A stretch of 39,083 nt of DNA from a virus (Duplodnaviria > Caudoviricetes), in the IMG/VR virus record IMGVR_UViG_3300010376_000073, positions 1-39,083 of that record. The stretch is one strand, 5' to 3'. The notes below the pieces were generated by a model, which was not told the DNA's origin, ran no database searches, and saw only the letters and a program-made list of their open reading frames with translations. Made by a program: the position numbers and the translations under genes. This document shows, piece by piece, positions 18,472 to 29,490 of the stretch; position 1 is the first letter of the stretch, and each line of letters starts with the position of its first letter.

Positions 18472-18510
18472 CCCCGGTATATGGTCTACCATATACCGGG
18501 GAGTTTTATT
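18472..18510 (+). terminator. Intrinsic terminator
   Basis: CCCCGGTATATGG-TCTA-CCATATACCGGGG (13-bp stem) followed by AGTTTTATT. Confidence 0.75.
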
Positions 18511-18524
18511 GTAATATAAAATAG

Positions 18525-18620
18525 TGTTTACTAGTTAGTAAACAGTGGAATGAAGTAGCGTATCTTGTTGATTCTAAACAAGATATTCTACTTGACACCA
18601 CTTTATGAGTAGGAGAATAT
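18525..18620 (+). promoter_or_regulatory. Promoter region with two palindromes
   Basis: TGTTTACTA-GT-TAGTAAACA; TATCTTGTT-N7-AACAAGATA; TTGACA(18592)-N17-GAATAT. Confidence 0.6.
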
Positions 18621-18626
18621 ATCACT

Positions 18627-19175
18627 ATGGCGAGATTCCGCTACGGTAAAAAGCGCAGTAGTTATAACTATACGCCAAAAGAAACTAAACCATTCAACGC
18701 AACATGGATACCACAGGCACAAGCTTATAAAGTCTCGTTTCCCTATAACGAAGGCTTTATAAGTTTAATCAAATCTAAAGTTCCATCTGGATACAGGGAT
18801 TATGACGAAAAGACAAAGGAGTGGTATTTTACTGAGGAATATTTTGACATACTTTTGCAGATTGCAAGGATTATGTTCAAAAGTTCGGTTTTTAACATAA
18901 TTGATAAGAAAACCGTAGAAGAATATAGTCAGGGCACTGCAATGACAGTACAAGTACCAGCAGAACAGCTTGCAAGAAAGTTTTATGCATTACTCGCAAA
19001 TGCTGGATTACAGTTAGATGGTGTTAATACAAATAAGAGTTTTCTTCGGAAATATTATCTACGGGCCGCAAAGTATTACCATCCAGATGTAAATCCAGAT
19101 GGAGCTAGTGATATGAGTAGTCTTAATCAATTGTGGTCAACTTTAACTAGTGAGGAGGTTCAATACTTCAAATGA
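18627..19175 (+). CDS. J-domain co-chaperone with N-terminal HARP-like domain
   Basis: C-terminal LRKYYLRAAKYYHPDVNPDGASDMSSLNQLWSTL is J-domain helix II-HPD-helix III; N-terminal FPYNEGFISLIKSKVP..YRDYDEKTKEWYF is HARP-like. Confidence 0.8.
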   Translation: MARFRYGKKRSSYNYTPKETKPFNATWIPQAQAYKVSFPYNEGFISLIKSKVPSGYRDYDEKTKEWYFTEEYFDILLQIARIMFKSSVFNIIDKKTVEEYSQGTAMTVQVPAEQLARKFYALLANAGLQLDGVNTNKSFLRKYYLRAAKYYHPDVNPDGASDMSSLNQLWSTLTSEEVQYFK

Positions 19176-19837
19176 GTGATAATAATAGCTTAACAAAGAC
19201 AACATCGCGCTTTGCTATTAAGAAAGTTGGTCTAAGTGCAATGGTACAACAGGCAAACGAAATGATTCCAGTAGACATGGCTAAAATGCAGAATCGTATT
19301 GGAATTATCTTCGATGACAGTGGTAGCATGAGTGGGGATGCAATTAATCAGGCGCATCTTGCCATAGAAGCGTTTGTAAAAAATTGCAATCAGTTTGATA
19401 CAGCACTCGCATTATATCCACTGAATGCAGATAAAAAGCCATTAAGTAGCAATTTTGCAGAAATCGCGCTGTATGGTATGAGCATTCCTGCAACTGGAGG
19501 CACACCACTATATGAGAAGCTAGTTGAATTATTTGACAATGAATCAATTACCCGCGCCATTGCATTTTCAGATGGTGCACCAAATCACAGTATGTCGGAG
19601 GCAATGTATGGAAAGTATATTCCTGCGAAAATTCCTATTGATACTGTATATATTGGACCAGCCGGAGATTATGGACAGAGTATTATGCAACAGATTGCAG
19701 AACGTACTGGTGGGATTTTTCTACACTTTGTTGACGTTTCAGTTATGGCAAAGGCGTTCAAATACTTAACTCCAGCATACAGGGCAATGTTGACTAGTGG
19801 GGAGTTTAGGAAAAAGATAGAAAGGGGGGAAGTATAA
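19172..19837 (+). CDS. von Willebrand factor A (vWA) domain protein
   Basis: Complete MIDAS: IIFDDSGSM, GGTPL, AFSDGAP; C-terminal MQQIAERTGGIF. Confidence 0.85.
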   Translation: MSDNNSLTKTTSRFAIKKVGLSAMVQQANEMIPVDMAKMQNRIGIIFDDSGSMSGDAINQAHLAIEAFVKNCNQFDTALALYPLNADKKPLSSNFAEIALYGMSIPATGGTPLYEKLVELFDNESITRAIAFSDGAPNHSMSEAMYGKYIPAKIPIDTVYIGPAGDYGQSIMQQIAERTGGIFLHFVDVSVMAKAFKYLTPAYRAMLTSGEFRKKIERGEV

Positions 19838-20043
19838 TGGAGGAAATACAGAAATTACTAGATACCTGTCAGAATCTGTTAGATAGTGGTATAGTAATTA
19901 TAGACGAGTTACTAGTTCGTCTTAACAAGGCTGAGAAACAGGTAGAGGAGTATGCTCTGCTGCTATTTCAACCACAAGGAGAAGCGCACCATAATGCTAA
20001 CGAATGTCCGTATTGCAAGGAGAATTTGAATGGCAAATCTTGA
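19837..20043 (+). CDS. Small coiled-coil protein with C-terminal H/CxxC site
   Basis: TAATG coupling; HHNANECPYC. Confidence 0.6.
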   Translation: MEEIQKLLDTCQNLLDSGIVIIDELLVRLNKAEKQVEEYALLLFQPQGEAHHNANECPYCKENLNGKS

Positions 20044-20212
20044 ATTACCATCTAATGAATTTGAAATTCTTAAGCAGGATGATGAAGTGATACATCTTTA
20101 TGATAAGAAAACAGACAAAATCTACGTTTATGATAAAGTCAAAAAATCATGGAGATTTCCAGCTGGTTCTCGTATTGAGTTTATTAATTATCTATTCAAT
20201 TTCAACTGGTAG
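20030..20212 (+). CDS. Hypothetical protein
   Basis: AAGGAG RBS; overlaps upstream gene. Confidence 0.55.
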   Translation: MANLELPSNEFEILKQDDEVIHLYDKKTDKIYVYDKVKKSWRFPAGSRIEFINYLFNFNW

Positions 20213-20220
20213 AGGAAAAG

Positions 20221-21363
20221 ATGACAGATGAACAAGCAGTTATCGGACTGAAGATGCAGGAAAAATTAAAGGCTATGAAGATATATGCCAGTATTATTGA
20301 CATTATCGACGGGCCGATTGTAACGGTGTATAAATTACAACTGAACAGCAGTGTACCAATTAGTAAGATTTTGAATAAAGAAGAGGATTTTGCACTAGCG
20401 GCTGGTGTGGAAAAGGTGCTCATACAGCGCAATGGCGCTACGATAGATGTATATGTGGCAAATACACAGAGAAAGGATGTAGATTTTAAGCATACGCTTA
20501 ATTTCATAATGACAGATGAAAAAGCTAAGAAGGCGGTACTACCAATTCCTCTCGGGGTTGATTTTGCAGGTGTCAACTCTTTTATCGAGCTTGTGGACTG
20601 TCCTCATATATTGCTCGCAGGCAGCACTGGTAGCGGCAAATCGGTGTTTGAAGCCGCAATCTTATCTATTCTCCAAGTATCTAGATCTCGTAGCGAAGTC
20701 CTTGTCCATTTAGTGGATACAAAGAGGATGGACTTACCATTATTTGCGAATTTACCTATAGTAGAAAGTTGCAGTACTGACTTACTTTCATTCTTAAAGA
20801 TGATGCAGTCTGTATTAGTAGAACATGAACACAGAGCGAGAAGGATGCAGAATGCATCTGTGAGGAGTATTGCAGATTATAATGCAATGGTAGGACTAGA
20901 CAATTCGTTACCACGAATACTTATATTAATAGATGAATTTGCTGATCTTGTAATGCAGGATCGGGAGATTAGACGTGGACTTGACAAGGAAGATCCTCTT
21001 AATCAATTGCCGAAAGCTGATTTCCTGTTACAGAGAATTGCTCAGATTGGCAGAGCAACTGGAATCCATATCATTGCAGCCACACAGCGTACTTCAGTTA
21101 AAATTGTTAACGGAGATGTCAAGGCAAACTTTCCTTGTAGAATCTCGCTTAGGCTACCTACGCAAGATGATTCAAGAACGATACTTGGACAAGGTGGAGC
21201 GGAAAATCTCCTAGGAAAAGGGGATATGCTAGTACAGTCTCCACATTCAGAAGAGCTAAAACGCTATCATGGGCCATTTGTAAAACATGAGGATATTTTG
21301 TATGTAGTGTCAGAATATCAACAGATAAAAGAAATGTATACCATGATAGGGGTTACTAGTTAG
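20221..21363 (+). CDS. FtsK/SpoIIIE-family ATPase (motor domains only)
   Basis: PHILLAGSTGSGKS, ILIDEFADL, GRATGIHIIAATQR, SRTILGQGGAENLLGKGDML; no N-terminal TM region and no gamma domain. Confidence 0.9.
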   Translation: MTDEQAVIGLKMQEKLKAMKIYASIIDIIDGPIVTVYKLQLNSSVPISKILNKEEDFALAAGVEKVLIQRNGATIDVYVANTQRKDVDFKHTLNFIMTDEKAKKAVLPIPLGVDFAGVNSFIELVDCPHILLAGSTGSGKSVFEAAILSILQVSRSRSEVLVHLVDTKRMDLPLFANLPIVESCSTDLLSFLKMMQSVLVEHEHRARRMQNASVRSIADYNAMVGLDNSLPRILILIDEFADLVMQDREIRRGLDKEDPLNQLPKADFLLQRIAQIGRATGIHIIAATQRTSVKIVNGDVKANFPCRISLRLPTQDDSRTILGQGGAENLLGKGDMLVQSPHSEELKRYHGPFVKHEDILYVVSEYQQIKEMYTMIGVTS

Positions 21364-21434
21364 TAACTAGCCACTAAGTCTTTGATTCCACGGTAAATAT
21401 AGATGTTGACAAAAGTGTTACACCTATAGAGGAT
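21352..21434 (+). promoter_or_regulatory. Promoter region with palindrome and IHF-like site
   Basis: GTTACTA-GT-TAGTAAC; TAAGTCTTTGATT (reverse complement fits WATCAANNNNTTR); TTGACA(21406)-N17-GAGGAT. Confidence 0.6.
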
Positions 21435-21440
21435 GGAACT

Positions 21441-22001
21441 ATGTCAAACTCATGTCAAAAATGTTATTTGTGCGATTCGGAGGAAATAGTAGGAACATGC
21501 GCAAAATGTCATAGAGCGTATTGTATGCAAGACGCGTCTAAGACAGATCCAGCGAATTATTGTGACGACTGTCTTAGAGATGTAGTGATAGAAGAGCGAA
21601 TTATAAGTAGAACAGACAGAGACTACGACTTGTGGTCTGAGGAATTAACACTTACACGAAGTACAAGTAAACTTATCCAGTTTCGAGGTATAGACTGGAT
21701 GTTTGCATGTGAGGAGATTTGTAAGCTTTCAACTGAACAATTAAAACCGAGGTTGGAATATCATAAGGCAATTGTATCTTTACTCCAGAGTGAACTAACT
21801 GCAAGAAGTGTAAAGAAGACACATGAGGTACATAATATAGATGGACATAGGGCTACGGTAAGTAAGTCGGTAAGACATAAGGCAAGTGGCCTTAATCCAG
21901 ATCAGAAGAAAATGAAGACGATGTTTGAACAAGCAATAAAGATGGGTCTGAGTATGGAACAGTTTTTTGATCTCATAAAAGGACAGGAAAAGGTACAATG
22001 A
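21441..22001 (+). CDS. Zn-finger (B-box/AN1-like) protein
   Basis: CYLC...CAKC....C..D...YCDDC at the N-terminus. Confidence 0.6.
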   Translation: MSNSCQKCYLCDSEEIVGTCAKCHRAYCMQDASKTDPANYCDDCLRDVVIEERIISRTDRDYDLWSEELTLTRSTSKLIQFRGIDWMFACEEICKLSTEQLKPRLEYHKAIVSLLQSELTARSVKKTHEVHNIDGHRATVSKSVRHKASGLNPDQKKMKTMFEQAIKMGLSMEQFFDLIKGQEKVQ

Positions 22002-22171: not shown

Positions 22172-23254
22172 ATGACAAAAGAAGATGCGGCAGCAATATA
22201 TCCGCACTTCTGTACTCTCGGGGAGGATGGAGTCATGGAGTTGTACTTGGATAACATGACTCTATCCTCTTTTAGAAAGTGTCAGGGGTACTGGGGAGAA
22301 TGGATAACAAGTCATCCTGGTAAAACTCTTGTCCAGAGAGGACGGAAGTGGAGTTTCGAGTTTGGGGCATATTTTCACAAGATGATGGAGTTCTTCTATC
22401 AAGCACAACGTGAAGATTGGGAAGGGATATTCATAACGAATATAAACGGAACAGAGCAGAGGTATAAACAGGACTTAATTACCTTTCTACAGATAGTAAA
22501 TGATTATTGGGATAAGTATGATCTTAATTATTTTATGGAGAAGGAGTTTAAGACGAATATTGGTAAGACTGCACAAGTACTTGGTGGACGTATAGGTGCA
22601 ACTAATCTTTTCATGGAGTATTATAAGAAGTACTGGAGACAAGAGAGATATAGGTTTATTGGATGGGAGCTATCATTTGGACGAGATAAGAGAATTCCTA
22701 TATGTTTACCAAGAGATAATTATAATTTTAGGGGCTATCTTGTTGGTAGAATTGACCTACTTCTTGATGATACTACAAATATTTCACCACTAGATTTCAA
22801 GACAACGCAGTATTTTGATGGATTTGAACAGGAGGATTATAAACCACATGAAGGCATTCAAGGGTACGTATATACAGGTAATTGCCTCTTACCAGAAGAA
22901 TTTAAAGCTAGAGGAAGATCCTGTAATTCAGCACTCATACGTCACGTTTCAATCAGAAAACCTTCTGACGGTTCAGATAGATTTAAAACGAGCACCATCT
23001 TATATACTCATCAAGAAATGGCAACATGGAAAAATAGACAAGAAAAGACTTTTAGAGACATCTACAACGCTTTAATAAACGAGGAAGTATTAACATGGAA
23101 TACGGATTTGTGTAACATGTGGTTTTATAACAATCCTTGTCCATACCTAAAACTTCATAAAGAGCCACTAGTGGAAAGGGAAGGAATTATTAACACGTTT
23201 TATCAGATAAAGGAAGGATGGAGTCCAGAGAGAAATGGAAACGGTAGAGACTAA
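22172..23254 (+). CDS. PD-(D/E)XK exonuclease (RecB/Cas4-like)
   Basis: FG..FH, GRIDL..., LDFKT, Q.Y motif, N-terminal C and C-terminal C..CPY. Confidence 0.8.
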   Translation: MTKEDAAAIYPHFCTLGEDGVMELYLDNMTLSSFRKCQGYWGEWITSHPGKTLVQRGRKWSFEFGAYFHKMMEFFYQAQREDWEGIFITNINGTEQRYKQDLITFLQIVNDYWDKYDLNYFMEKEFKTNIGKTAQVLGGRIGATNLFMEYYKKYWRQERYRFIGWELSFGRDKRIPICLPRDNYNFRGYLVGRIDLLLDDTTNISPLDFKTTQYFDGFEQEDYKPHEGIQGYVYTGNCLLPEEFKARGRSCNSALIRHVSIRKPSDGSDRFKTSTILYTHQEMATWKNRQEKTFRDIYNALINEEVLTWNTDLCNMWFYNNPCPYLKLHKEPLVEREGIINTFYQIKEGWSPERNGNGRD

Positions 23255-24041
23255 GTTAAAGGTATTTATGCCAGATGGAAGTATTGAAACGTATAGACGC
23301 TCTATACATGGGCCACGAAAAATAGCAATACAAGGGCCGCCTAAGAGTGGAAAAAGTCATTTAGCAGCAACAGCACCAAGAGGACCAAAGTTCTTTTATG
23401 ATCCTGCCGGGCGTCTTGATAGTCTGGAAGGAATGCCAGATGTGTTTGGTAAGACTTATTATGATTCAGTAAATCCATCTAAAAGTACGGCATGGGATAT
23501 GATTGAGCAGGATACTAATATGTTCGAATATCATCATGCAAAAGGAGATCCTATACCAGGGACGTTTATTTATGATGATATAGATATTCTCATGGATAGG
23601 GCTATGCGTAAGTGTTTGGTAGATGGACTTACGCAGGTGAAGAAGTTGAAGGCTGGAAGTAATATTTATCTAGCTCCGGCAAACTGGTATCCGAAGGCGG
23701 AATTGGATATGGTGGGTAATTTAATTGCCAGGGGAATAGAAATGGGTTCTGATGTTATAGCAATTTTCCATGAGAGAGATGAAGAAACAGCGGATTCTAC
23801 CAGTGAAGATAAGAAATTTACTGGAAAGAAATCTGTACATCCACCGCGCGCTGCTGTATTTTTACCTTTGTTTAATGAGTACTGGAGATGCGTGCCAACT
23901 GGAGATGGTAAGTATGTAGTCCATACTAAGTCAAGTTACATTTTTGATGGTGCAACTTGTCTTGATGTGGAGGAAACAGAAGAAGCAGATATTACGAAAA
24001 TGGTTAACAAGAGTGAAGAGAGGAAAAGACAAAATGGCTAA
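23235..24041 (+). CDS. AAA_24 / Sak4-like ATPase (recombination)
   Basis: Walker A GPPKSGKS, FIYDD, IFHE; flanked by exonuclease and SSB candidate, the usual Sak4 context. Confidence 0.7.
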   Translation: METVETKLKVFMPDGSIETYRRSIHGPRKIAIQGPPKSGKSHLAATAPRGPKFFYDPAGRLDSLEGMPDVFGKTYYDSVNPSKSTAWDMIEQDTNMFEYHHAKGDPIPGTFIYDDIDILMDRAMRKCLVDGLTQVKKLKAGSNIYLAPANWYPKAELDMVGNLIARGIEMGSDVIAIFHERDEETADSTSEDKKFTGKKSVHPPRAAVFLPLFNEYWRCVPTGDGKYVVHTKSSYIFDGATCLDVEETEEADITKMVNKSEERKRQNG

Positions 24042-24582
24042 GATAATGTTTAAGGAAGAGAAGATTTATCAGACAAGAAAAGTGTTGGATGAGGGATTGT
24101 ATAACTTGAGGGTTGTACGATTTCAGCAGAAGTGGGGAAAACCGAAGGATGGGGAGAAGGAACATTCGAGTATAAACTTCTGGCCTATTTTAGAGGTATT
24201 AAGTAAAGCAGACGGGAGTCCTGTTCCGGTGCAGGAAAATGGAAGACCGATTGAAATCTGGTGGCCGGCATCTACTAAGTTCGAAGCCGCACTGGTAGAT
24301 TTCAGTCATGCTTGTGGTCTTCCAATGGAAACTAAGACGATAAATGGGGAAAATTATGTAAATCTTCCCGGTATTTGGTATCCAGAGGAGCAGGATGATA
24401 TTGAGAAGTGTCAGTATAAAGGTCCGATTATCGGACGGAAGTTGCAAGCGTATATAGTACCTGGAGAGTACAACAATAATCCGAAGAATGATATTCGGAA
24501 TTTTATTTGTGCTATTCCAAATTGTGCAAGCCAGTTTCCTAAGTTGGTGCATAGGACGAATTTAATTAGGAAGACTGAGTAA
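24034..24582 (+). CDS. Putative ssDNA-binding protein (DUF669-like)
   Basis: Start moved to ATG 24034; 'LDEGLYNLRV', 'IGRKL', 'EYN....N.I' pattern; follows Sak4-like gene. Confidence 0.55.
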   Translation: MAKIMFKEEKIYQTRKVLDEGLYNLRVVRFQQKWGKPKDGEKEHSSINFWPILEVLSKADGSPVPVQENGRPIEIWWPASTKFEAALVDFSHACGLPMETKTINGENYVNLPGIWYPEEQDDIEKCQYKGPIIGRKLQAYIVPGEYNNNPKNDIRNFICAIPNCASQFPKLVHRTNLIRKTE

Positions 24583-24583
24583 T

Positions 24584-24892
24584 GTGAGATGGGAAGAACG
24601 TAGTAAGTTTAGAAAAACTGCCACAGATGGTGCTATATGTGCCATCTGTGGCATTACTGCGTCTAATTCACCTACAAAACGATTAGTAATAGATCACGAT
24701 CATGGTTCAAAAGAAATCCGTGGATTTTTATGTGATCGTTGTAATGCATATGTATATCTTTTTGAAAGAGAGTACTACTGTTTTCCTCCAGCAACATATA
24801 CTAAACAATCATATTTAGACTGGGTAGAAACTTACAATAGTAAGCTTAAAACCTATTTCGAAAACACAAAAATTCTGGAAAAATTTTTATGA
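24584..24892 (+). CDS. Endonuclease VII-family (His-Me) nuclease
   Basis: CAIC...LVIDHDH....IRGFLCDRCN. Confidence 0.85.
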   Translation: MRWEERSKFRKTATDGAICAICGITASNSPTKRLVIDHDHGSKEIRGFLCDRCNAYVYLFEREYYCFPPATYTKQSYLDWVETYNSKLKTYFENTKILEKFL

Positions 24893-25995
24893 CGATTTCA
24901 CCAAAGGGAAGTCCAAAATCTCCCGTATGGGTGGTGATAGATGAGCCTTACCCAAAAGATTATGAGAATGGCGGTATTTATAGCTCTGGTCTTGGGTATG
25001 TATTTGAGCGCGCTTGGAGAGATGCCAATATATCTGAAGATCCCTTTATTTGTGCTATATACGATAACTACACTGGGGGTTATAGTACAGATGTAGATTA
25101 CAAAGCACTTGTACAAACGATTAACATGTACAAGCCACCTATTATATGTACAATGGGTGAAAAGGTAACTGCATTGTTTTGTCCAGAGACGAGGAGGAAA
25201 AAGAAACATGCTAATACAGACAAAAGTAGCCTTGAAAAGTGGGCGGGAAGTTTATTACAATCTCCCGATATCTCTTACGAACACTACTGCATTCCCCAAC
25301 TTCAACCGGACAGAGTGGTGGCTAATTGGGAATACAGATTCATATACGTTAACATTGACCTGCGACATATACGGGAGGAACTCAGTTTCTTTCACCAGAA
25401 TCAGAGACTCCAACCTTTACCAGAACGAGAGTTGATTATAGAACCCAGCTTTACTAAATTACGTGAGTATCTATATGATTGTTTCCAGTACCCACTTTTA
25501 TCAGTTGATATAGAAACTATAAGACCGACCCGAGGTAGTAAATTGCATGGAAAACATCCCGGATATCCCTATACACTTTCCATTTCATCTTCCCCAAAGC
25601 AAGGAATTTCATTTTGTTTATGGGATTATACAGAAGAAGAGACGATTGTGCTTTTTAGATTGCTTGATACTTTACTATCCTCTGTCGGTCAAATTGGACA
25701 GAATTATTTTACATTCGATGCACATTTTCTCAAAGCACTTGGGTTCCGTCTTTGTCTTGAAAAGTGCCAAGATACCATGCTTAGGCACAGTATATTATGG
25801 CCTAGTTTGCCACATAAGTTACAGTTCCTCACTAAGCATTATACGAGGCAACCGTATTATAAGGATGAGGGAAAAGGATGGAGTCCGAAGAATAAAAAGG
25901 CATTGATGCATTATAATTGTTTGGATACTACTGTTACATTTGAATGCTATCTTGGACAGGAAGAGGAATTTCAGGATAGACCATATTTAATTTAG
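24889..25995 (+). CDS. DNA polymerase A N-terminal part: degenerate family-4 UDG-like domain plus 3'-5' exonuclease
   Basis: UDG-like PKGSPKSPVWVVIDEP...G..Y....G and KPPIICTMGE; ExoI SVDIET, ExoII GQNYFTFD, ExoIII YNCLD. Confidence 0.8.
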   Translation: MTISPKGSPKSPVWVVIDEPYPKDYENGGIYSSGLGYVFERAWRDANISEDPFICAIYDNYTGGYSTDVDYKALVQTINMYKPPIICTMGEKVTALFCPETRRKKKHANTDKSSLEKWAGSLLQSPDISYEHYCIPQLQPDRVVANWEYRFIYVNIDLRHIREELSFFHQNQRLQPLPERELIIEPSFTKLREYLYDCFQYPLLSVDIETIRPTRGSKLHGKHPGYPYTLSISSSPKQGISFCLWDYTEEETIVLFRLLDTLLSSVGQIGQNYFTFDAHFLKALGFRLCLEKCQDTMLRHSILWPSLPHKLQFLTKHYTRQPYYKDEGKGWSPKNKKALMHYNCLDTTVTFECYLGQEEEFQDRPYLI

Positions 25996-26004
25996 GAGGA
26001 AACC

Positions 26005-26292
26005 ATGAAGTTTCTAGAGAAGGTACACGGGAGCAAGTGGACTAGATTATGGTTTGCTTGCTATCTGATCTATGTTGTTTACATAACCTCTATTCCAGCT
26101 TATGGGGGATGTGGGAATTGGAATGACTTCTCACCACAACAAACAGATTTGTTTATGTCTCTCAGTGCAGTGGGCGTAGGAGTTGCCTTTTTCTTGACTG
26201 GTCCATTAGGCTGGGGAATAATGGCCGGAGCCGTGGGCCTTGGTCTTCTTGGTGGCATTGAAGGAACTGCACGATTATTTATGGGATGCTAA
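26005..26292 (+). CDS. Small secreted/membrane Gly-zipper peptide (bacteriocin-like)
   Basis: AGGAGG RBS; hydrophobic leader ending IPAYG|GC; two Gly-rich hydrophobic helices; terminal GC. Confidence 0.6.
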   Translation: MKFLEKVHGSKWTRLWFACYLIYVVYITSIPAYGGCGNWNDFSPQQTDLFMSLSAVGVGVAFFLTGPLGWGIMAGAVGLGLLGGIEGTARLFMGC

Positions 26293-26317
26293 TTAAAACG
26301 TCACTTCGTCTATAAAC

Positions 26318-27808
26318 ATGGATAAAATAACTAGCACTTATCTTCGTGATCTTGCAGTGGCGTATCATAAAATAGATAACAGAGGAATTCTTTTTGATGA
26401 AAGGATAATGACCGACCTATCATATGCTATCAAAAAGATGGTTGATTCTTTATTGGCTGAACTCAGTAGTACCTGGGGTACTAGCGTATATCTTGGCATT
26501 ACAAATAAACCTAAGGGTAACGATAATCTCAATCTTGGTTCTCCTGTTCAATTGCTTGGTAAACTTAAGTCTCTTGGGTTCGAGGTACCGAAGGTGAGGA
26601 AGAAGAATAAGGAGACGTATGATGTTGAATATAAGGAAAGTGTGGAGGAACTGGTATTACGAAAGATTTTCGCCGAAACTAGTGCGCGGCCTATTCAGAT
26701 TATTCTTGAGATACGTGAACTCAACACATTGCGGACACGTTATGTTGATTCCAAACGGATCGAAGGTGTATTCTACTCTTGTTTTAATACCGCAGGAACT
26801 ATTACAGGAAGACGCTCCTGTAAAAAGCATACTTTCGGAGTTGGCGGTAACGCGCAAACTTTTCCTAAACATTATTCCCCGAATAGTTTATGTTACAAGT
26901 TCGGAGGACGTTTTCTCGAAGGAGTTATCAGTAGGCCAGGGAAAATATTTTTTATAGTAGATCAGGTAAGTGCAGAGGACTGGCCTACATCTGCGCTAGC
27001 GGAGAATCATAATGCATTGGACGAGTTACGTAATCAAGTCGATCGCCATACTAATTTGGCATCTTTCATTTTTGGCATACCTGTTGCTTCTCGTAGTAGG
27101 GATGCGTGGAAGCATAGTCTTGAACGATATCTTGGTAAGAAGTCGAGACATGCTTTTAATTACGGTCTGCGTGGTATTACTATGGCGGATCAGTTAGCTA
27201 AGGAAGGCTTTGCATTGCCACCTGAAAGATGTCAGTGGCTGTTAGATCAGGTAGACAAATATGACCCAAGTGTAGAGAGGATATTCCATGAATACATTCG
27301 TAATGAAATACTTGACAGACAATTACTGCGAACTCCGTTTGGACGTGAGTGCCACTTTACTGGACTTCGCAGTAATAGCCCAAATTACAATATTTTTAAT
27401 GAGGGTTATTCATATATTCCACAATCCACAGTCGGGGATAATACAGGCTTCGCTGTCTTTCAACTTGAACGAGAGTGTAACGATGTTGTTAACGAATGTC
27501 ATGACTCCATCACACAAGAAGTTTACAATGACTTGGGAACAGTTCTTAGCACTTATGAGAGAACCCGCAGAGCATTTGATAGAAACATTATCTTCCATAA
27601 TGGAATTACAATCAACATTCCAATCGAAGGTGAATTAGGATTTAGTCTGGGGGATACGGTGAAGATAGAAGAGTTTACGGAAGAAGGTGTTAGACTTGCA
27701 TTTGAAAAGTTAAATGATACAAGGGGAAGCAATGAGGGTACTGAAGAAACCCTGGATACAGGCATACGAACAGTACGTGGACCAGACGGAATCACCAACG
27801 GAGTATAA
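26318..27808 (+). CDS. polA: DNA polymerase A, polymerase domain
   Basis: RGI, NLGSPVQL, TITGRRS, motif A DQVSAE, motif B RYLGKKSRHAFNYG, TPFGR, PQSTVGD, motif C CHDS. Confidence 0.9.
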   Translation: MDKITSTYLRDLAVAYHKIDNRGILFDERIMTDLSYAIKKMVDSLLAELSSTWGTSVYLGITNKPKGNDNLNLGSPVQLLGKLKSLGFEVPKVRKKNKETYDVEYKESVEELVLRKIFAETSARPIQIILEIRELNTLRTRYVDSKRIEGVFYSCFNTAGTITGRRSCKKHTFGVGGNAQTFPKHYSPNSLCYKFGGRFLEGVISRPGKIFFIVDQVSAEDWPTSALAENHNALDELRNQVDRHTNLASFIFGIPVASRSRDAWKHSLERYLGKKSRHAFNYGLRGITMADQLAKEGFALPPERCQWLLDQVDKYDPSVERIFHEYIRNEILDRQLLRTPFGRECHFTGLRSNSPNYNIFNEGYSYIPQSTVGDNTGFAVFQLERECNDVVNECHDSITQEVYNDLGTVLSTYERTRRAFDRNIIFHNGITINIPIEGELGFSLGDTVKIEEFTEEGVRLAFEKLNDTRGSNEGTEETLDTGIRTVRGPDGITNGV

Positions 27809-28916
27809 TACATGGATGGCTATTGGAATAATAGGAAGTTCCTTGAAGAAGAATGTATGGCTTCCAGAGAAGTATACAAATGGGTTCTTTAAGATATATC
27901 CAAATCAATATGTAATTTTAGTAGGTCCACCTGGAGTTGGGAAGGGTACTGCTATAAATCCAGCTATTGATTTAGCTCGTAGAGCACAGACGGTGAATTA
28001 TATTGCGGATAGAACTACGGCAGAGAAAGTAGTGGAGCAGATTGGGAAAGGATTTAGTACGATATACAAGTCTCCAAGTGGAATAGTTAAACCTATTATG
28101 GATAATTCTGCGACTATAGTTAGTACAGAATTACCAATATTTCTACAGACAAGTGAGTGGATGCTTCCACTTATGTGTGAGATGTGGGATAGAAACGAAT
28201 TCTCTTATGCCACTAAGAACAAGGGTAGTATTAATGCTACAAATATTTGTATTTCTCTTATTGCAGGGTGCGTCCCTGACTATATTCGGAAGCTCAATAA
28301 AGATGCTATGTCTGCAATTACTGGTGGGTTTACTAGTCGTTGTATTTTTGTGTATGCTACAGAACGATCAAAGACTATAGCTTGGCCTGCTACTAATGGG
28401 AATATGGCGAAGTTAGAAACAGACTTGGTAAATGATTTGAAGGAAATATCTTTGCTTAGCGGAGAGGTACACTTTGATGCAAAGGCAAGGACAATGTGGG
28501 AAGCGCAGTATCAGAGCATGAAGCCTGATATGTTTGAGTCTGAAGTTCTATCAGGATTCAAGTCTAGAATGAAGTCACATATATTTAAGACTGCTATGAT
28601 ATTAAGTATATCTGAGAATAACAATAAGATAGTACTTGAAAGACATTTGTACAATGCTATTAAGTTAGTACAGGATATACGTAATAGAGTAGATACAACT
28701 TTTAGATCCCTTGGGGAATCTCCTCTGGCTGCACAACAAGACAGGGTGTTAAAATATATTGCTGCAAAGCAAAGCTGTACTAGTAAGGCTATCTTTGCAC
28801 ATATGTCACAACATATGACATACGACCAATTCTTGCAGATACTTTTTGTACTAGAGATGGCAGAGAAGATAAAGAAAAGGCCCAGTGGAAAGGTGGATAT
28901 GTATGAACTCTTTTGA
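27732..28916 (+). CDS. DUF3987-like P-loop helicase
   Basis: TESP, YVILVGPPGVGKGT, GGFTSRCIFV, wHTH-like C-terminus; start ATG 27732 (or 27714). Confidence 0.7.
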   Translation: MRVLKKPWIQAYEQYVDQTESPTEYNTWMAIGIIGSSLKKNVWLPEKYTNGFFKIYPNQYVILVGPPGVGKGTAINPAIDLARRAQTVNYIADRTTAEKVVEQIGKGFSTIYKSPSGIVKPIMDNSATIVSTELPIFLQTSEWMLPLMCEMWDRNEFSYATKNKGSINATNICISLIAGCVPDYIRKLNKDAMSAITGGFTSRCIFVYATERSKTIAWPATNGNMAKLETDLVNDLKEISLLSGEVHFDAKARTMWEAQYQSMKPDMFESEVLSGFKSRMKSHIFKTAMILSISENNNKIVLERHLYNAIKLVQDIRNRVDTTFRSLGESPLAAQQDRVLKYIAAKQSCTSKAIFAHMSQHMTYDQFLQILFVLEMAEKIKKRPSGKVDMYELF

Positions 28917-29490
28917 GGTAATATGGGAAGATGAGGTATATAAGGTAAAGGCTGGTATAGAAGAGATCGGCCTGTCTTGTATTGGAGATCAAATACTTGT
29001 TCTAGAAGACAAGTTTAAAACTGGATGGGAATGTTCTAAGTGCGAAGGAGAGTGTTACCTTGGGGAAGATTGTGACTTTTGCAACGGTACAGGGAAAGAA
29101 AACAATGCCACAGATCAGGAAGTTCCATGCAGAATGTGTTGCCCAAAAAATCTCCTTGATTCTTTCGGATGTATGCCAGGGAAAAAGATATGTGATAGAT
29201 GTGGAGGAAGAGGAAGTCTTATTATCGCACCTCAAATATCTCAACAAAAGCCGGCTTCAGGTACTATTGTCTCTATTGGCCCCGATGTGTATCCAGATTG
29301 CAGAATTATTAACAACGTCACAGGGCAAAGGTGGGCATACCCGATGAAGATGGGGGATCGGGTATTATATGGACATTTTGCTGGAAGTGATATAAGGCTT
29401 AAACAAAAAGAACTTGTTAGAGTAATGCATGCACATGAAGTATTGCTTAAGCTTCGTGGCAGGGCAAGATATGGAGACTTCGCACAGTGA
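28903..29490 (+). CDS. groES: GroES/Cpn10-like co-chaperonin with inserted DnaJ-type zinc finger
   Basis: GroES motifs IGDQILV...KT / GSLIIAP...QQKPASGTIVSIGP...MKMGDRVLYGHFAGSDI...VMHAHEVL; insert with CSKC, CDFCNGTG, CRMC, CDRCGGRG. Start moved to ATG 28903. Confidence 0.8.
   Translation: MNSFEVIWEDEVYKVKAGIEEIGLSCIGDQILVLEDKFKTGWECSKCEGECYLGEDCDFCNGTGKENNATDQEVPCRMCCPKNLLDSFGCMPGKKICDRCGGRGSLIIAPQISQQKPASGTIVSIGPDVYPDCRIINNVTGQRWAYPMKMGDRVLYGHFAGSDIRLKQKELVRVMHAHEVLLKLRGRARYGDFAQ

What the first reader, a model, noticed from the sequence alone, without database searches (positions are those of the whole stretch)
18627..21363. Self-contained J-domain + vWA + FtsK ATPase operon
Seen: its own promoter, then tightly coupled genes for a HARP-like/J-domain fusion (intact HPD), a vWA protein (intact MIDAS), two small proteins and a soluble FtsK motor. 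Established: J-domains recruit DnaK via HPD; vWA proteins act as substrate adaptors for ring ATPases (usually MoxR); FtsK/HerA ATPases translocate DNA or protein. Inference: an undescribed phage remodelling machine in which vWA and DnaK deliver or dismantle a nucleoprotein target for the FtsK ring (host takeover, anti-defence or phage DNA handling).
Basis: partly seen in the sequence, partly recalled or inferred. Interest (0 to 1): 0.78.

Follow-up and report, generated by a model that had tools for sequence, protein, structure and literature searches.

The report
Phage anchorless FtsK pump with adaptors
A family of uncultured ~50-kb phages keeps, in the same order in almost every relative that could be checked, genes for a chaperone-hook (J-domain) protein, a metal-site adaptor (vWA) protein and a DNA-pump motor lacking its usual anchor and steering parts; the adaptor likely loads the pump on DNA, but no interaction has been shown.

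Summary
The genes are real and intact: a HARP-like/J-domain protein (HPD in 85 of 85 distinct relatives), a stand-alone vWA (all five MIDAS residues in 52 of 52 aligned) and an FtsK alpha-beta motor without membrane anchor or gamma domain that keeps most DNA-pore residues. J-vWA-FtsK occur in this order in 57 of 58 distinct FtsK loci with enough flank. They were not seen beside unrelated phage FtsKs (J 0 of 75, vWA 1 of 75) or viral J-proteins (0 of 80). But the whole early/replication block, GroES included, is equally conserved, so co-occurrence does not show a complex. The two small genes and the tight coupling are lineage-specific. Support is best for vWA-FtsK: highest mirror-tree signal, and an unrelated 71-kb phage carries a nested FtsK behind a different vWA and no J. 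Best reading: a vWA-loaded dsDNA pump serving phage recombination/replication, with DnaK help less certain (0.4). No description found in eight paper searches. The complex prediction could not be run. The scan noted a matching vWA+FtsK pair before in another genome (e1-372203).

The parts
18472..18501 (+). Terminator-like hairpin (13 pairs) after the upstream 198-aa gene
   Evidence: (I12)
18525..18544 (.). 20-bp dyad (9-bp arms), candidate operator; also present upstream of J in the closest relative L142
   Evidence: function inferred
18592..18618 (+). Promoter-like site: perfect TTGACA, weak -10 at 15-nt spacing; TTGACA at the same distance from the ATG in L142
   Evidence: not called by the consensus scan
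18627..19175 (+). HARP-like (about aa 22-95) + C-terminal J-domain (about aa 109-179, HPD 152-154) protein, 182 aa
   Evidence: HPD in 85 of 85 distinct homologues
19172..19837 (+). Stand-alone vWA protein, 221 aa, MIDAS D48 S50 S52 T111 D134, family-specific C-terminal KYLxPxxRxML motif
19837..20043 (+). 68-aa protein, helical with C-terminal HxxxxCxxC; only in the two closest relatives
20030..20212 (+). 60-aa ORF with no homologue in any other genome's locus examined
20221..21363 (+). FtsK alpha-beta motor, 380 aa, no membrane anchor, no gamma domain; Walker A K140, Walker B D238 E239, Arg finger R278, pore residues R290 K301 R319
21353..21411 (+). Second copy of the 14-bp dyad core (21353-21366) and a second TTGACA (21406-21411): likely start of the next transcription unit
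21441..22001 (+). Conserved Cys-rich protein (B-box-like zinc finger, weak lead) that follows FtsK in the family
22172..24582 (+). Context: PD-(D/E)XK nuclease, Sak4-like annealing protein and a conserved 212-aa protein (SSB by position only), the recombination module downstream

Best explanation
The three conserved genes encode a J-domain protein with an intact HPD, a vWA protein with an intact metal site and an FtsK motor without anchor or gamma domain; the motor likely forms a soluble ring that pumps double-stranded DNA, the vWA protein likely serves as its loader or tether in place of the missing parts, and the J-protein would bring host DnaK to protein-DNA targets, possibly the same complex. 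Shown: intact motifs, domain layout, fixed order, family-wide retention. Inferred: the ring acts on phage DNA during the early-to-replication switch (clearing bound proteins or feeding DNA to the adjacent PD-(D/E)XK nuclease and Sak4 annealer); vWA binds an acidic residue of the motor or of a substrate through Mg2+ (the motor has family-conserved acids D247 and E55, untested); HARP-like domain binds DNA junctions (recalled role of HARP domains). The vWA-FtsK link is the better supported; the role of J is the weakest step.
For: Order J<vWA<FtsK in 57 of 58 distinct FtsK loci with >=3.5 kb upstream. Independent anchor (3'-5' exonuclease): 44 loci with >=9.2 kb upstream have FtsK 44, vWA 43, J 40; the four J misses are at the flank limit and their contigs do carry J (L033, L057). 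Catalytic residues in 52 of 52; DNA-pore residues named in PMC7321959: R632 51 of 52, K643 52, G640 52, R661 40 (+2 K). No gamma domain in 0 of 4 genomes, three of them complete; 16-44 residues after the last motor motif. No MoxR (AAA_3, AAA_5) in 0 of 4 genomes, so the vWA lacks its usual partner. vWA-FtsK has the highest partial mirror-tree correlation of 36 pairs (0.43), FtsK-nuclease second (0.40). An unrelated complete 71-kb phage (G003) holds an FtsK nested in the family (100/99; AU p 0.014) 0.7 kb behind a DUF2786-DUF7168-vWA gene whose vWA falls outside the family's vWA clade, and a relative L288 shows the same order. Phage J-domains with HPD do engage DnaK (Rki, PMC3486835).
Against: All other genes of the block are kept as strictly and in the same order (Cys-rich 44 of 44, nuclease 44 of 44, GroES fusion 37 of 37), so retention of the trio is explained by descent alone. 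Median gaps J-vWA 271 nt and vWA-FtsK 248 nt, <=30 nt in only 9 of 78 and 9 of 90. J-vWA and J-FtsK partial r 0.08 and 0.07; the mirror-tree values use non-independent pairs and favour long conserved proteins. Loop I K657 is not kept (R in 8 of 52). 74 of 75 unrelated viral FtsK loci show no vWA nearby, so anchorless phage FtsKs in general work without one. G003 is one lineage, its vWA has a long branch, and L288 looks mis-joined. No fusion of family vWA to a longer protein was found (539-2000 aa searched).
Confidence: 0.4

Rival explanations
1. Three separate early functions (a DnaK hook like Rki, a vWA protein with a host or virion target, a DNA motor) that sit together only because this phage family keeps its whole early/replication gene order.
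For: Twelve genes from the 198-aa gene to the GroES fusion are collinear in all loci that reach them; variable small genes lie between the three; J is uncoupled in mirror-tree and not found in G003; the family also keeps a GroES, pointing to general chaperone borrowing.
Against: A different vWA sits before the same FtsK clade in an unrelated phage; vWA-FtsK is the top pair; no MoxR for the vWA; the unit is bracketed by two matching dyad + TTGACA sites in the window and L142.
Confidence: 0.3
2. Host takeover: the anchorless motor acts on the host chromosome or mixes into host FtsK rings to block segregation and division, with vWA and DnaK aiming it.
For: Position right after the early genes with several TTGACA sites; alpha-beta domains alone can form rings (PMC7321959 passage); Rki is an early, toxic DnaK hook.
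Against: A pure poison would not need Walker A/B, Arg finger and pore residues in 51-52 of 52; only about 35% identity to cellular-type FtsKs makes mixed rings less likely; host unknown.
Confidence: 0.15
3. Protein remodeller in the manner of MoxR-vWA or type VII EccC: vWA presents a protein substrate that the FtsK-fold ring threads, with DnaK assisting (the first reader's protein-target version, including anti-defence use).
For: vWA domains are peptide-binding co-chaperones of MoxR ATPases (PMC7159879, PMC7824862 passages); weak hits of the ATPase to EssC/EccC, SspH and Mad8 models.
Against: It has the FtsK alpha domain and DNA-pore loop II; similarity to DNA-pumping FtsK (E 7.8e-49) far exceeds that to EccC/YukB (E 3e-13 or weaker); PADLOC gave no hit for J or vWA.
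Confidence: 0.12

Closest known systems
Cellular FtsK/SpoIIIE DNA translocases (P. aeruginosa FtsK, PDB 2IUU/6T8B; PMC7321959)
   Same: Alpha and beta domains, Walker A/B, Arg finger, loop II pore residues and mostly R661.
   Different: No N-terminal membrane domain or linker, no gamma domain in the gene or elsewhere in the four genomes searched; K657 not kept; acidic insert after Walker B; phage-encoded.
MoxR AAA+ / vWA chaperone pairs, including those of group 2.2 jumbo phages and Acidianus two-tailed virus (PMC7824862, PMC7159879 passages)
   Same: vWA protein with intact MIDAS encoded just before a ring ATPase in a virus.
   Different: The ATPase is FtsK/HerA class, not MoxR; no MoxR found in 0 of 4 genomes; the vWA is small and stand-alone, with no peptidase.
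Rki (057w) of coliphage RB43 (PMC3486835)
   Same: Phage class C J-protein with HPD, first gene of a cluster of unknown genes, early position.
   Different: Rki has an N-terminal J-domain and unrelated C-terminus; here J is C-terminal behind a HARP-like domain, and no tblastn match to cultured phages better than E 0.3.
Other phage FtsK/SpoIIIE-like proteins (PHROG 1358/3551; mycobacteriophage LittleE gp198, Bacillus phages)
   Same: Phage-borne FtsK motor, often without anchor.
   Different: They fall outside this clade; LittleE has no annotated vWA or J gene within 6 kb; J 0 of 75 and vWA 1 of 75 near sampled ones.
HerA-NurA end-resection pair (recalled; seen only as a search listing, PMC9960219)
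   Same: FtsK/HerA-class ring near a nuclease and an annealing/recombination protein.
   Different: Nuclease is PD-(D/E)XK, not NurA; ATPase is FtsK-type with alpha domain; two genes apart; no interaction shown.

Membership tests
FtsK/SpoIIIE translocase | Alpha + RecA-like beta motor with Walker A/B and Arg finger | tested here: met
FtsK/SpoIIIE translocase | DNA-pore residues (R632, K643, S634, V635, G640; K657, R661) | tested here: inconclusive
   loop II kept in 47-52 of 52, R661 in 40, K657 not kept
FtsK/SpoIIIE translocase | N-terminal membrane anchor | tested here: not met
   353-419 aa, begin at alpha domain; hydrophobicity >1.8 in 2 of 52
FtsK/SpoIIIE translocase | C-terminal gamma (KOPS-reading) domain | tested here: not met
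   16-44 aa tail; PF09397 in 0 of 4 genomes, control 8 of 14
FtsK/SpoIIIE translocase | Hexamer that translocates dsDNA | not testable with these tools
   needs biochemistry
MoxR-vWA chaperone system | vWA with MIDAS (DxSxS, T, D) | tested here: met
   52 of 52; fold
MoxR-vWA chaperone system | Linked MoxR AAA+ ATPase | tested here: not met
   PF07726 and PF07728 in 0 of 4 genomes, 3 complete
J-domain co-chaperones (class C) | HPD in loop between helices II and III of a J fold | tested here: met
   85 of 85; model helices 112-125, 137-151, 157-175; T-antigen J match Z 7.1; Pfam score under cut-off
J-domain co-chaperones (class C) | Stimulates DnaK ATPase | not testable with these tools
   chimera test as in PMC3486835 needed
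HARP domain (PF07443) | Profile match over cut-off and HARP fold | tested here: inconclusive
   23.3 bits against cut-off 25; HARP/SNF2-N neighbours; eIF1-like folds tie in VIA
TerY-P triad (recalled) | vWA with PP2C phosphatase and kinase genes | tested here: not met
   neighbours are J and FtsK; no phosphatase or kinase among the window ORFs scanned
Known anti-phage systems with FtsK/HerA | System's partner genes present | tested here: not met
   only the ATPase domain hits SspH/Mad8/HerA models; J and vWA none

The most novel reading that the evidence does not exclude
The first FtsK-class DNA motor that is loaded and aimed by a MIDAS vWA adaptor and switched by host DnaK through a DNA-junction-binding HARP-J protein, replacing the gamma/KOPS and membrane modules; a core, apparently essential machine of a large uncultured phage family, with vWA recruited next to this motor twice.
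Probability: 0.22. Interest if true: 0.8.

Novelty: new variant of a known kind. Interest (0 to 1): 0.52.

Why it matters
vWA adaptors are known for AAA+ (MoxR-type) rings, not for FtsK/HerA pumps, and the job of phage-encoded FtsKs is unknown. If the vWA loads this motor, it is a new way of steering the fastest DNA translocase without KOPS, and three small soluble proteins with clear point mutants (HPD, MIDAS, Walker A) make the question directly testable. Even under the weaker reading, the genes mark a widespread phage family with no match of its vWA among 50,697 GenBank phage records that keeps hooks for both DnaK and GroEL.

Tried and rejected
Complex prediction of FtsK x2 + vWA + Mg: never ran, queue full; no verdict. 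RNA runs: none was listed. Word-based protein search for J found only itself; the profile search found 471 clusters at E<=1e-10. Search for HARP-J proteins outside the family: alignment had no searchable stretch; the HPD pattern sample of 80 flanked loci held none, though the ESM Atlas lists viral clusters of 145-175 aa that look alike, so whether HARP-J occurs without vWA/FtsK stays open. Relatives of the G003 FtsK: only itself. IHF-like site at 21375: not above chance (2 found, 3.2 expected) nor enriched in relatives; rejected. Family-wide shared motif before J and after FtsK: not found (6 of 46 against 3 of 46 controls); TTGAC[AT] before J in 10 of 42. Temperate lifestyle: no tyrosine integrase in 0 of 4 genomes, none among 67 ORFs scanned. 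Fused vWA forms: none of family type at 539-2000 aa; 388-538 aa not searched. Eight of ten genome contigs vWA hits were generic vWAs with none of the family's neighbours and served only as outgroup. Packaging-ATPase role rejected: the phage has terminase, portal and head genes. Barriot et al. 2020 on phage J-proteins is not held and may list this architecture.

Full report
Setting. The window is a 39-kb, about 79% complete virus record. Terminase, portal and major head genes lie on the - strand below 13.7 kb; small early genes and then a nuclease, Sak4-like protein, split Pol A, primase/helicase and a GroES fusion follow on the + strand. The finding sits at the border between early and replication genes.

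Observation. The five ORFs exist as described and abut or overlap. Protein 1 has sub-threshold Pfam hits to HARP and DnaJ; its model (pLDDT 85.6) has an alpha/beta domain and a three-helix domain; the latter matches the polyomavirus T-antigen J domain best (Z 7.1), the former eIF1-, XPB-N- and UvsW-N-like folds at middling Z and HARP/SNF2-N proteins. Protein 2 has a vWA fold with a full MIDAS. Protein 5 is FtsK alpha + beta only. The promoter is a perfect TTGACA at 18592 with a weak -10, not called by the scan. A hairpin precedes it, and a 20-bp dyad at 18525 has its 14-bp core repeated at 21353 before a second TTGACA; both dyads recur at matching places in the closest relative L142. So in this sub-lineage the unit is probably bracketed by two co-regulated promoters (inference); this is not seen family-wide.

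Co-occurrence. The vWA has 111 relatives in the protein collection and no match in 50,697 GenBank phage records. vWA-anchored scans gave 71 viral loci, 31 metagenome loci including the window's own contig and 2 true members among 10 genome loci. Of the 71, 70 show FtsK (the miss ends inside vWA) and 63 show J (the 8 misses have vWA within 830 bases of the contig start). To avoid ascertainment I anchored on FtsK (best 80 of 558) and on the exonuclease (best 80 of 150). Among 83 distinct family-type FtsKs, 58 have at least 3.5 kb upstream and 57 of these carry J and the family vWA in the order J, vWA, FtsK; the exception is L090. Among 44 exonuclease loci (near-copies not removed) with at least 9.2 kb upstream, FtsK is in 44, vWA in 43, J in 40; the four misses end at the flank limit and their contigs do carry J. 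Three further fragments that begin at or after FtsK show neither. Motifs: HPD 85 of 85, DxSxS 104 of 107 (three cut fragments), Walker A 85, Walker B 86 and Arg finger 86 of 86. The 68-aa gene is found only in L142 and L143, the 60-aa gene in no other genome.

Controls. Of 120 viral FtsK-pattern loci, 80 had flanks: 5 belong to the family and all 5 have the trio; of the other 75, one has a vWA (L288) and none a HARP-J. Of 123 viral HPD-pattern loci, 80 had flanks and none had FtsK, vWA or a HARP-like domain. Both controls use home-made profiles and flanks of at most 5 kb, some cut short. The trio is thus specific to one FtsK clade (SH-aLRT 99, quick tree; 100/99, careful tree of 30 rows).

Against a dedicated operon. 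The whole block (198-aa gene, J, vWA, FtsK, Cys-rich gene, nuclease, Sak4, SSB-like, exonuclease, polymerase, primase, GroES fusion) is collinear everywhere, also in the distant complete genome G004. Gaps J-vWA and vWA-FtsK have medians 271 and 248 nt and hold variable small genes. So descent alone can explain co-occurrence.

For a vWA-FtsK link. In 32 genomes with nine genes, the partial correlation of distances is highest for vWA-FtsK (0.43), then FtsK-nuclease (0.40); J-vWA and J-FtsK give 0.08 and 0.07 (weak test, pairs not independent). G003, a complete 71-kb phage sharing only four detectable proteins with the window, holds an FtsK nested inside the family (AU p 0.014 against excluding it) 0.7 kb behind a DUF2786-DUF7168-vWA gene whose vWA lies outside the family vWA clade on a long branch; no HARP-J or HPD protein was found there. 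A relative, L288, has the same order but looks mis-joined. No MoxR and no FtsK gamma domain was found in four genomes, three complete.

What the motor moves. PMC7321959 (passages) names K657/R661 and R632/K643/S634/V635/G640 as DNA contacts; mapped through the alignment, loop II is kept in 47-52 of 52 sequences, R661 in 40 (plus 2 K), K657 not. With the alpha domain and the far stronger match to FtsK than to EccC/YukB, a dsDNA pump is more likely than a protein translocase.

Mechanism. Most likely (0.4) a soluble FtsK ring works on phage DNA at the switch to recombination-linked replication, loaded or tethered by the vWA, with HARP-J bringing DnaK to DNA-bound targets. Rivals: independent functions in a frozen gene order (0.3), host-chromosome or host-FtsK interference (0.15), MoxR-like protein remodelling (0.12). 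The complex prediction could not be run, so no binding evidence exists either way.

Literature. Eight searches gave no paper on this combination. Seen: PMC7824862 passages (jumbo-phage DnaJ and MoxR-vWA); PMC7159879 passages (MoxR-vWA ternary systems; FtsK only as inactive effector); PMC3486835 abstract and section 6 (Rki); PMC10410713 passages (no HARP or vWA mention); PMC7321959 passages; PMC3409536 passages, where the HARP domain appears only in a reference title, so its DNA-junction role is recalled. No supplements were read; Barriot 2020 is not held; both could list these proteins.

Verdict. Real, intact, family-wide and apparently undescribed; known parts in a new arrangement, coupling plausible for vWA-FtsK and unproven for J. 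New variant of a known kind, interest 0.52.

Noticed in passing
G001:C2 about 175,800-224,400 (L172, L392-L394): A whole ~48.5-kb member of the family (GC about 0.45) lies inside a TonB-dependent receptor gene of a 638-kb Gammaproteobacteria bin contig (GC about 0.6), opened between FtsK and the Cys-rich gene, with no clear target duplication and no integrase found; its FtsK is in three pieces. Either a rare insertion that hints at the host or an assembly artefact.
   Followed up: partly
window 28885-29490: GroES-like domain fused to an N-terminal (zinc-ribbon-like in one relative) part, right after the primase in 37 of 37 loci that reach it: a second host-chaperone hook in the family.
   Followed up: partly
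window 18525-18544 and 21353-21366; L142 6331 and 10890: Dyad operator candidate upstream of two TTGACA sites; the binding protein is unknown.
   Followed up: partly
L090:5850-7193 (G003), L288:193-1158: DUF2786-DUF7168-vWA fusion directly upstream of FtsK in a second phage lineage.
   Followed up: partly
window 21441-22001: Conserved Cys-rich, B-box-like protein; some relatives (L007, L084, L149, L190) carry a second, weaker-matching copy between J and vWA.
   Followed up: no
L393:3653-4951; L388:6634-7914: GARS-like ATP-grasp protein within the structural region of two family members.
   Followed up: no
window 24889-27808: DNA polymerase A is split into separate exonuclease and polymerase genes throughout the family.
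   Followed up: no
L262-L341 (e.g. L277, L278, L296): About 39 of the sampled viral loci encode a ~250-aa beta-domain-only FtsK forming one clade.
   Followed up: no
L421:4931-5497, L456:482-1063: Another phage protein family with a C-terminal J-domain behind an unrelated N-terminal domain.
   Followed up: no
L008, L010, L021 J genes: Some HARP-J homologues carry long Cys-rich N-terminal extensions (280-390 aa).
   Followed up: no
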